Source of the DNA: a candidate division WWE3 bacterium
Lineage (GTDB): Bacteria > Patescibacteriota > WWE3 > UBA101185 > UBA10185
DNA length: 64,000 nucleotides
NCBI GenBank assembly: GCA_014729135.1
Contig: WJKK01000001.1
Span: 192,593-256,592 of the forward strand
Direction of reading: 5' to 3'
The notes beneath the pieces were generated by a model. It saw nothing but the letters and a program-made list of their open reading frames with translations, had not been told where the DNA came from and did not search any database. The position numbers were made by a program, and so were the translations under genes. This document shows, one piece after another, positions 15,572-15,645 of the stretch (the stretch's first letter is position 1; every line of letters starts with the position of its first letter).

Positions 15572-15645
15572 TTAATGGCCATCCTGGTGCACCCAACCCG
15601 AACGAATTCAGATTGTCCAAGATGGCCATTAAAAAATTCGTTCGG
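15572..15645. promoter_or_regulatory. Interleaved perfect inverted repeats immediately upstream of the recombinase start
   Basis: TTAATGGCCATC (15572-15583) pairs with GATGGCCATTAA (15621-15632). CCCGAACGAATT (15597-15608) pairs with AATTCGTTCGG (15635-15645). Confidence 0.5.

What the first reader, a model, noticed from the sequence alone, without database searches (positions are those of the whole stretch)
15572..15645. Two interleaved perfect 11-12-bp inverted repeats abutting the recombinase start codon
TTAATGGCCATC pairs with GATGGCCATTAA, and CCCGAACGAATT pairs with AATTCGTTCGG. The two pairs overlap and lie 6-80 nt upstream of the integrase ATG. Serine-integrase attP/attL sites are 40-50 bp imperfect palindromes. 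Alternatively this is an autoregulatory operator or a transcription terminator for the upstream gene. The segment shares an 8-mer (CCAACCCG) with the tRNA-Asn 3' end.
Basis: seen in the sequence. Interest (0 to 1): 0.55.

Follow-up and report, generated by a model that had tools for sequence, protein, structure and literature searches.

The report
Conserved RNA pseudoknot leading integrase mRNA
The interleaved inverted repeats are real, but they are not a recombination site: they encode a conserved three-helix RNA knot at the very start of the integrase messenger RNA of a small mobile element in an uncultured (CPR) bacterium, an RNA motif absent from Rfam and from the papers I searched, which probably controls how much integrase is made.

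Summary
On the minus strand, between a DnaD-like gene and a large serine recombinase (LSR, ATG at 15566), there are three helices. The 5' arm of P3 sits in the loop of P2, which is pseudoknot topology. I recovered twelve distinct versions from related WWE3/CPR elements. They keep the same architecture with 99.3% of cells paired. Eighteen of 34 pairs show changes on both sides. Two G.U wobbles are conserved and pair only on the integrase-sense strand. An invariant TAnAAT -10 box lies 6-7 nt before P1, and only 3-18 nt separate P3 from the AUG. It is therefore an RNA structure at the 5' end of the int mRNA, with no Rfam match. The att-site reading is refuted. The element junction lies at the 3' end of tRNA-Asn, with a 10-bp direct repeat at 14054-14063 and 25146-25155 that bounds an 11.1-kb element. 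The motif is internal to that element. The most likely function is post-transcriptional gating of Int synthesis, by occluding the ribosome loading zone or serving as a protein operator. This function is inferred, not shown. Rival readings are an attenuator, a 5'-end stabiliser and a trans-acting RNA.

The parts
15664..15692 (-). Promoter-like site: TCGAAA (15692-15687), a 17-nt spacer, then TATAAT (15669-15664). The -10 box is 6 nt before P1.
   Evidence: One search scored it 10 of 12. TAnAAT is invariant, at a fixed distance of 6-7 nt from P1, in 13 aligned upstream regions.
15649..15657 (-). P1 5' strand (GCACUCAAC), the probable 5' end of the transcript.
   Evidence: Pairs with 15589-15597. 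Nine pairs, 100% paired in 12 sequences, 4 pairs with changes on both sides.
15646..15648 (-). J1: a bulge on the 5' side (AAA here, 3-6 nt in relatives).
   Evidence: Hand alignment.
15635..15645 (-). P2 5' strand (CCGAACGAAUU).
   Evidence: Eleven pairs, 9 with changes on both sides, 97.7% paired.
15631..15634 (-). L1: UUUU, invariant.
15617..15630 (-). P3 5' strand (AAUGGCCAUCUUGG), inside the P2 loop.
   Evidence: Fourteen pairs, 100% paired, 5 with changes on both sides, two U.G wobbles kept in 11 of 12. RNAalifold recovers it independently on the MAFFT alignment.
15609..15616 (-). L2: ACAAUCUG (7-8 nt). Its CAAY could alternatively pair with GUUG of the P1 3' strand.
15598..15608 (-). 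P2 3' strand (AAUUCGUUCGG).
15589..15597 (-). P1 3' strand (GUUGGGUGC).
15588..15588 (-). L3: a single A between P1 and P3 (A in 11 of 12, AA in one).
15574..15587 (-). P3 3' strand (CCAGGAUGGCCAUU). In the window two more pairs extend it to 15572.
15567..15573 (-). A/U-only spacer (AAUUUUU) between P3 and the start codon.
   Evidence: The spacer is 3-18 nt and 58-100% A+U in 12 versions.
14022..15566 (-). Large serine recombinase gene (514 aa). Its last 13 sense codons and stop codon are the antisense of the tRNA-Asn 3' half.
   Evidence: Pfam Resolvase + Recombinase + Zn ribbon, PHROG integrase 1e-80, N-terminal alignment.
14054..14063 (+). int-proximal junction core CGGGGAGCCA, which is the 3' end of tRNA-Asn (13989-14063).
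25146..25155 (+). Distal junction core CGGGGAGCCA, followed by a hairpin (CATTAAAGTTCG/CGAACTTTAATG) that looks like the tRNA's original terminator.

Best explanation
The inverted repeats are the DNA template of a structured RNA of about 90 nt that forms the extreme 5' leader of the integrase (large serine recombinase) mRNA. Transcription starts at a conserved -10 box 6-7 nt upstream, so the first transcribed bases form helix P1. P1 (9 bp) continues through a 5'-side bulge into P2 (11 bp). The 26-nt loop of P2 carries the 5' strand of P3. That strand pairs over 14-16 bp with the sequence that follows P1 after a single A and ends 3-18 nt before the int AUG.

The helices share no nucleotides, and the linker lengths are fixed: UUUU, 7-8 nt, and 1 nt. 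I therefore read it as one compact three-helix pseudoknot. A switch between the two sterically competing folds is not excluded.

Inferred mechanism: every int transcript must carry this knot. Its 3' edge lies inside the stretch that a 30S subunit needs to load on an mRNA that mostly lacks a Shine-Dalgarno sequence. The folded leader would therefore throttle or gate Int translation, either on its own or as the operator for a protein that stabilises it. Burying the 5' end in P1 may also protect the mRNA.

Shown: the structure, its strand, its position and its conservation. Inferred: the transcription start, the effect on translation and any ligand.
For: - Helices and topology in the window.
- Twelve distinct homologous versions were found. 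Each is a single copy on the int strand directly upstream of int.
- Covariation: 99.3% of 408 cells are paired. Eighteen of 34 pairs have changes on both sides (P1 4, P2 9, P3 5). None of 500 shuffles reached the observed value on four of the five measures (2 of 500 for further pair types). Slid controls give only 28-47% paired.
- RNAalifold on an unfitted MAFFT alignment recovers P3.
- Single-sequence MFE folds recover P1+P2 in 9 of 12 sequences.
- Strand: 36 G.U cells make the sense strand 99.3% paired against 90.7% for the antisense. Two U.G pairs in P3 are kept in 11 of 12.
- Promoter: TAnAAT is invariant at a fixed distance from P1.
- The spacer from P3 to the AUG is 3-18 nt and A/U-rich, which leaves no room for another promoter. 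The only version with a canonical AGGAG has the longest spacer.
- No Rfam family matches.
- Precedents for leader pseudoknots as translational operators: T4 gene 32 (PMC3014915) and rpsO/S15 (PMC8470358).
Against: - There is no expression or probing data. The transcription start, the folding in vivo and any effect on translation are inferred.
- With L1 = 4 nt and L3 = 1 nt, the coexistence of three helices of 9, 11 and 14 bp needs sharp bends. I could not model this.
- P1+P2 (-21 to -27 kcal/mol) and P3 alone (-18 to -22) are nearly isoenergetic, which also fits a switch.
- The spacer to the AUG varies, and L010 has a free SD 10 nt after P3. This is awkward for a strict occlusion model.
- Closely related integrases at the same tRNA-Asn site do without the motif (L002-4, 6, 7, 12, 13, 20, 21), so it is not essential for recombination.
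- The 12 sequences are related, the P2 register was aligned by hand, and the structure was derived from these same sequences, which inflates the contrast with the slid controls.
Confidence: 0.6

Rival explanations
1. Transcription attenuator. P3 followed by the U-rich tract acts as an intrinsic terminator inside the leader. P1+P2 (or a factor acting on them) decides whether RNA polymerase reads through into int. The short product would be an RNA of about 95 nt.
For: P3 is G+C-rich and is followed by AUUU- or U-rich sequence in all versions. The two folds are nearly isoenergetic. L2 CAAY can pair with GUUG of the P1 3' strand, an alternative partner typical of switches.
Against: As a hairpin, P3 would have a loop of 29-31 nt. 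The terminator scan found nothing here, though it only allows loops of 3-8 nt. The U-tract is interrupted, and U-richness is the background composition. P1/P2 and P3 share no nucleotides, unlike classical terminator/antiterminator pairs. No sensing element is evident.
Confidence: 0.15
2. Pure 5'-end stabiliser. The knot only buries the 5' terminus in P1 (possibly stacked on P3), so that the int mRNA resists 5'-end-dependent decay. It would have no gating role.
For: The distance between the -10 box and P1 is fixed, which puts the first transcribed base in a helix. The P1 3' strand continues into the P3 3' strand after one A, so the 5' end would sit at a stacked junction.
Against: A simple 5' hairpin would be enough for this. 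The conservation of P3, of UUUU, of ACAAY and of all linker lengths goes well beyond what protection needs.
Confidence: 0.1
3. An RNA with a function of its own, for example a self-cleaving ribozyme that trims the leader, or an RNA partner of the recombinase that affects directionality or target choice.
For: The primary sequence of P1, P3 and the linkers is strongly conserved, beyond what pairing alone requires. The RNA has its own promoter. It is always linked to one LSR clade.
Against: There is no match to any ribozyme or other Rfam family, even at E<=10. Complementarity to the tRNA/att region is no better than chance, and P1 does not covary with the tRNA D-arm. Relatives that use the same att site lack the RNA. 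LSRs are known (my knowledge) to need only protein and DNA.
Confidence: 0.07
4. A DNA-level element: an operator of inverted repeats bound by a dimeric regulator (XRE or Int), or a cruciform just downstream of the int promoter.
For: The inverted repeats lie next to a promoter, and an XRE-type regulator is encoded in the element.
Against: The arms of P2 have unrelated sequences in different relatives yet stay complementary. The two arms of P3 differ consistently at two positions, and those positions are G.U only on the sense strand. The three interleaved dyads have different centres. No other copy of either arm exists in the window.
Confidence: 0.05
5. An attP/attL recombination site of the serine integrase.
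For: Only its closeness to int and its dyad symmetry.
Against: The junction maps to the tRNA-Asn 3' end in all relatives. The 10-bp direct repeat at 14054-14063 and 25146-25155 places the motif inside the element. The arms are not contiguous half-sites. The covariation points to RNA.
Confidence: 0.01

Closest known systems
Bacteriophage T4/T2/RB69 gene 32 mRNA leader: a 5' pseudoknot followed by an A+U-rich tract, acting as a translational operator
   Same: A pseudoknot at the 5' end of a phage or mobile-element mRNA leader. It is followed by an unstructured A/U-rich tract that runs into the ribosome-binding region. The regulated gene encodes a DNA-binding protein (PMC3014915; window spacer AAUUUUU).
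   Different: The gene 32 knot is a small classical H-type fold with two short, coaxially stacked stems, and it lies 67 nt from the AUG. Here there are three long helices (9, 11 and 14 bp), and the knot ends 3-18 nt from the AUG. No binding protein is known. There is no sequence similarity.
rpsO (ribosomal protein S15) leader pseudoknot operator of E. coli and mycobacteria
   Same: A 5' UTR that can adopt either hairpins or a pseudoknot. The pseudoknot form blocks productive initiation when stabilised by a protein (PMC8470358). A conserved U-G next to C-G occurs in a stem, and here P3 has U.G/C-G/U.G.
   Different: That system is a ribosomal-protein autoregulon with a shorter knot overlapping the SD and AUG. 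No S15-like partner is indicated here, and there is no homology.
IncI-alpha/IncB plasmid repZ/repA leader 'activator' pseudoknot (from my own knowledge, not checked here)
   Same: The loop of an upstream hairpin pairs with a sequence just 5' of the start region of a mobile-element gene. The topology is therefore the same: loop paired to an RBS-proximal tail.
   Different: That pairing is only a few base pairs, it activates translation, and it is countered by an antisense RNA. Here the pairing is 14-16 bp, and no antisense promoter was looked for or found.
Serine-integrase attP/attB sites
   Same: They lie next to an LSR gene and have dyad symmetry.
   Different: They are contiguous 40-50-bp imperfect palindromes at the element junction. 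This motif is internal, interleaved, strand-asymmetric, and covaries like RNA.
IS110/IS1111 bridge (seek) RNAs encoded upstream of the recombinase
   Same: A structured non-coding RNA with its own promoter, directly 5' of a recombinase gene in a mobile element (papers listed).
   Different: The recombinase family is different (DEDD/RuvC-like there, serine here). No internal loops complementary to target or donor were found. Relatives integrate at the same site without the RNA.

Membership tests
LSR attachment site (attP/attL/attR) | Lies at the junction between element and host DNA | tested here: not met
   The junction is at the tRNA-Asn 3' end (TGGCTC in int orientation) in all relatives. 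The direct repeat at 14054-14063 and 25146-25155 puts the motif 1.5 kb inside the element.
LSR attachment site (attP/attL/attR) | Two contiguous imperfectly symmetric half-sites (about 20-25 bp each) around a central dinucleotide | tested here: not met
   The arms are separated by 26 and 29 bp and are interleaved, with different dyad centres.
LSR attachment site (attP/attL/attR) | A related half-site at the other junction | tested here: not met
   No other copy of either arm in 64 kb at up to 3 mismatches beyond chance.
LSR attachment site (attP/attL/attR) | Bound and recombined by the integrase | not testable with these tools
   Needs an in vitro recombination or EMSA assay.
Intrinsic (Rho-independent) terminator of the upstream gene | G+C-rich hairpin with a short loop, followed directly by a U-tract | tested here: not met
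   The scan found none in 15300-16400. P1-P2 is followed by ACCAGG. As a hairpin, P3 has a loop of 29-31 nt. A -10 box sits between the upstream stop codon and the structure.
RNA pseudoknot in an mRNA leader (cis-regulatory) | Loop of one helix pairs with sequence outside it, with both helices supported by covariation | tested here: met
   P2 has 9 of 11 and P3 has 5 of 14 pairs with changes on both sides. 99.3% of cells are paired, and no shuffle in 500 reached that.
RNA pseudoknot in an mRNA leader (cis-regulatory) | Transcribed on the sense strand as part of the mRNA 5' UTR | tested here: inconclusive
   Supported indirectly: sense-only G.U pairs, a conserved -10 box at fixed distance, and a 3-18 nt spacer to the AUG. 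No transcript data.
RNA pseudoknot in an mRNA leader (cis-regulatory) | Changes expression of the downstream gene | not testable with these tools
   Needs reporter fusions with disrupting and compensating mutations.
Any Rfam 15 family (riboswitches, ribozymes, T-box, leaders, sRNAs) | Score at or above the family's gathering threshold | tested here: not met
   Only 3 tRNAs in the window at gathering thresholds. The best hits in 15450-15800 at E<=10 score 11-18 bits against thresholds of 42-211.
T-box / tRNA-sensing leader | Specifier codon and a UGGN bulge complementary to the tRNA NCCA end, both conserved | tested here: not met
   The CAAY in L2 and the UGGC in P3 are lost in L016 (ACAGCAAA; AAUAGCC, with a compensating change in P3). 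There is no RF00230 hit.
IS110-type bridge/guide RNA | Unpaired loops complementary to target and donor DNA, covarying with them | tested here: not met
   The longest matches to the tRNA/att region are 5-8 nt, no better than shuffles. P1 stays GAGCUCAAC where the tRNA D-arm differs (L011, L028).
DNA operator for a dimeric repressor | Half-site sequence conserved among relatives that share the regulator, and symmetric on both strands | tested here: not met
   The P2 arms have at least 8 unrelated sequences. The P3 arms differ at two fixed positions that are wobble pairs on one strand only.

The most novel reading that the evidence does not exclude
The knot is not just a leader but a functional RNA partner of a large serine recombinase. 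For example, it could be an Int-binding riboregulator that couples Int level or directionality to the state of the element, or an exonuclease-resistant closed three-helix fold that hides the 5' end. Either would be the first structured RNA tied to the LSR family, and a new RNA fold class from the Candidate Phyla Radiation.
Probability: 0.08. Interest if true: 0.85.

Novelty: new member of a known kind. Interest (0 to 1): 0.5.

Why it matters
Large serine recombinases are treated as self-sufficient protein and DNA machines, and they are widely used as genome-engineering tools. I found no description of RNA-level control of their expression in Rfam or in the papers I searched.

This is a well-supported structured RNA motif that is absent from Rfam (34 base pairs, 18 of them covarying). 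It has an unusual interleaved three-helix topology. So far it is found only in small, tRNA-Asn-targeting, satellite-like elements of CPR bacteria, organisms that cannot be cultured and whose regulation is almost unknown.

It gives a concrete, testable handle on how such elements set integrase levels: a 90-nt RNA with clear compensatory-mutation designs. It also corrects the att-site assignment for this element family.

Tried and rejected
- **att site:** rejected by junction mapping.
- **Half-sites elsewhere in the window:** none.
- **Significance of the 8-mer shared with tRNA-Asn:** chance, and not conserved in relatives.
- **tRNA-like 3' end (P1 followed by A-CCA):** rejected. L018 and L029 have CUA instead, with compensating changes in the P3 partner, so these bases are P3 pairs and not a CCA end. 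ARAGORN finds nothing there.
- **T-box-like tRNA-Asn sensing (AAY in L2, UGGC in P3):** rejected, because L016 loses both.
- **Leader peptide or N-terminal extension starting at the AUG inside P3:** the window's 535-aa ORF is in frame, but relatives hit stop codons after 11-19 codons and L016 has AUA. The changes are pair-compensating, not codon-like.
- **Guide-RNA complementarity to att DNA:** none beyond chance.
- **Known RNA families:** none.
- **Viral contig collection:** two pattern scans gave 0 hits.
- **Exact-protein look-ups** of the window's Int and DUF1189 protein: not on record.
- **L010 and L004 as attP forms:** rejected for L010. The flanking genes of L010 are housekeeping genes, so this is an insertion at a non-tRNA site. 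L004 was assigned only by its analogous junction and its flank was not annotated.
- **PHROG and PADLOC annotation of the cargo genes:** uninformative.
- **Literature searches** for an LSR-associated RNA or CPR satellites: no precedent found.
- **First chance-estimate script:** timed out and was rerun.

Full report
**1. Observation**

TTAATGGCCATC (15572-15583) pairs with GATGGCCATTAA (15621-15632). CCGAACGAATT (15598-15608) pairs with AATTCGTTCGG (15635-15645). With one mismatch each they extend to 16 nt and 15 nt. The outer part of the second one is in fact a separate third helix.

The window has 11 perfect inverted repeats of at least 11 bp (gap 3-60), against 1.6 expected. Interleaved pairs arose in 0 of 100 random sequences. 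The sense-strand RNA folds with a z-score of -3.98.

**2. Context**

The window is a chromosome of a candidate division WWE3 (CPR) bacterium. The repeats lie on the minus strand between a 204-aa DnaD-like ORF (16279-15665) and a large serine recombinase. That recombinase has Resolvase, Recombinase and Zn-ribbon domains and matches PHROG integrase at 1e-80. Alignment with 20 homologues puts its start at ATG 15566, not at the in-frame ATG 15629.

Further upstream on the same strand are small ORFs, a small terminase subunit and an XRE regulator.

**3. Where the att sites are**

The 3' end of int overlaps the 3' half of tRNA-Asn(GTT) in antisense, and the int stop codon overlaps the anticodon. All relatives with enough flank sit at tRNA-Asn in the same way.

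Aligning the int-distal ends shows that homology between elements stops right after TGGCTC, which is the tRNA's GAGCCA. In L010 and L004 the same int end is joined to non-tRNA DNA at exactly that point. L010's flank is housekeeping genes, so that copy is an insertion at another site.

In the window the 10-mer CGGGGAGCCA occurs twice, at 14054-14063 and 25146-25155. The second copy is followed by a perfect 12-bp hairpin, as expected for the tRNA's original terminator. Cargo genes between the two copies have homologues inside related elements.

The element is therefore about 11.1 kb (14064-25145). The repeats are internal to it, 1.5 kb from the nearer junction. No other copy of either arm exists in the window. 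The 8-mer shared with the tRNA is chance. The att-site reading is refuted.

**4. What the repeats are**

Searching genomes, metagenomes and assemblies with the integrase gave 29 loci. Twelve distinct versions of the upstream region share one architecture. Reading 5' to 3' on the int strand, the parts are:
- a -10 box TAnAAT
- 6-7 nt
- P1 5' strand (9 nt)
- a bulge of 3-6 nt
- P2 5' strand (11 nt)
- UUUU
- P3 5' strand (14 nt)
- ACAAY.. (7-8 nt)
- P2 3' strand
- P1 3' strand
- a single A
- P3 3' strand
- an A/U-rich spacer of 3-18 nt
- the AUG

The pairing statistics on a structural alignment (A3) are as follows:

| Measure | Result |
|---|---|
| Cells paired | 99.3% of 408 |
| Pairs with changes on both sides | 18 of 34 (P1 4/9, P2 9/11, P3 5/14) |
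| Shuffles reaching the observed value | 0 of 500 on four of five measures; 2 of 500 for further pair types |
| Cells paired with partners slid by 1-3 columns | 28-47% |

P2 has at least eight unrelated sequences that all stay complementary. RNAalifold on an unfitted MAFFT alignment recovers P3. Single-sequence folds recover P1+P2 in 9 of 12.

Thirty-six cells are G.U, including two U.G pairs in P3 that are kept in 11 of 12 sequences. As a result the sense strand is 99.3% paired and the antisense only 90.7%. This is the signature of an RNA read from the int strand, not of a protein-binding DNA dyad.

nhmmer finds exactly one copy per motif-bearing locus. It finds none in the loci whose int abuts the upstream gene or is preceded by AT-rich iterons. 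No Rfam family matches, and I found no report of such an RNA.

**5. How it probably works**

Two things follow directly from the sequence. First, the spacer between P3 and the AUG (3-18 nt) leaves no room for another promoter, so every int mRNA carries the structure. Second, the invariant -10 box at a fixed distance puts the transcript's first bases into P1.

The three helices share no nucleotides. L1 (UUUU), L3 (A) and the lengths of all elements are conserved. This argues for one defined three-dimensional fold: a closed three-helix pseudoknot with sharp bends at the bulge and at the P1/P3 junction.

Two observations keep a switch possible. The near-equal stabilities of P1+P2 and P3 fit one. 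So does a possible alternative 4-bp pairing of L2 CAAY with GUUG.

Most versions lack a Shine-Dalgarno sequence, and their AUG lies 3-13 nt after a stable helix. I therefore infer that the folded leader limits or gates 30S loading, possibly as the operator of a protein. This would parallel the T4 gene 32 leader pseudoknot with its A/U tract (PMC3014915) and the rpsO/S15 pseudoknot (PMC8470358). Protection of the 5' end may add to this.

The rivals are:
- an attenuator in which P3 plus the U-rich tail terminates transcription
- a pure stabiliser of the 5' end
- an RNA with its own function (ribozyme or Int partner)
- a DNA operator

The evidence for and against each is in the rival section. None of the functional steps is shown; they need the experiments listed under next steps.

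**6. Comparison and novelty**

It works like known leader pseudoknot operators, but it is not a member of any described family. It is larger, with 34 bp in three interleaved helices. It sits at the very 5' end of the mRNA. It is linked to a large serine recombinase, for which I found no report of RNA-level control.

I file it as a new member of the known kind 'structured cis-acting mRNA leader'. There is a small chance (about 8%) that it is something more unusual.

**7. Verdict**

The att-site interpretation is refuted. The regulatory fallback survives, but at the RNA level. Interest is moderate (0.5): a clean candidate for a new RNA motif from CPR mobile elements, with its function still inferred.

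Noticed in passing
window 14064-25145 (junction cores 14054-14063 and 25146-25155): An 11.1-kb integrated element flanked by the 10-bp direct repeat CGGGGAGCCA. It carries an LSR, a DnaD-like replication protein, a small terminase subunit, an XRE regulator and unknown cargo (a 996-aa protein and a DUF4352 protein), but no recognisable capsid genes. It looks like a SaPI/PICI-type phage satellite in a CPR bacterium. Relatives carry primase plus AAA_25 helicase instead (L018).
   Followed up: partly
window 14022-14063; L010 6004-7656; L004: The last 13 sense codons and the stop codon of the integrase are the antisense of the host tRNA-Asn 3' half, and the stop overlaps the anticodon. The C-terminal tail of Int therefore depends on where the element sits. 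At a non-tRNA site (L010) the ORF runs on to 550 aa. Integration could thus change the protein's tail.
   Followed up: partly
L001 about 5830-5880; L018; L010; L020/L021 upstream of int: Inverted sets of short direct repeats flank an AT-rich core just upstream of the int promoter, for example TTTCCCTA x2 ... TATATATA ... TAGGGAAA x2 in L001. They lie directly after the replication genes and look like a replication origin with iterons. L020/L021 have such repeats but no RNA motif.
   Followed up: no
window 18318-18353: A perfect tandem duplication of an 18-mer (TTATGGATCTCTCGGAAA x2 on the + strand), about 170-200 nt upstream of the XRE gene start (18152) and inside a 64-aa ORF. It could be an operator or iteron of the element.
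   Followed up: no
window 2590-2900: About 300 nt of non-coding sequence next to tRNA-Ile (2513-2589, minus strand) is packed with at least six consecutive near-perfect hairpins, three of them with perfect stems of 11-12 bp at 2619, 2709 and 2804. There is no Rfam match. It is unexplained.
   Followed up: no
window 14022-15566 versus P0001: The public annotation of this genome (GF360_00940) calls only residues 155-514 of the integrase. It therefore misses the catalytic resolvase domain, although the 514-aa ORF is intact in the window.
   Followed up: yes
L004 and L007 (same 64-kb contig DBQJ01000021); L003 7486 and 8257: One WWE3 contig carries two related LSR genes 17 kb apart, one at tRNA-Asn and one at a non-tRNA junction. 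L003 has a tRNA-Asn 3' fragment at the int junction plus an intact tRNA-Asn 770 nt further on. This suggests repeated or tandem insertions at this hotspot.
   Followed up: no
window 8439-13881; L016, L017, L020, L021: The chromosomal neighbourhood of the tRNA-Asn hotspot is conserved across WWE3 genomes: a DUF1189 protein, an unannotated protein of 1200-1400 aa, an HTH regulator and SufC/SufBD. Only the inserted element differs between them.
   Followed up: partly
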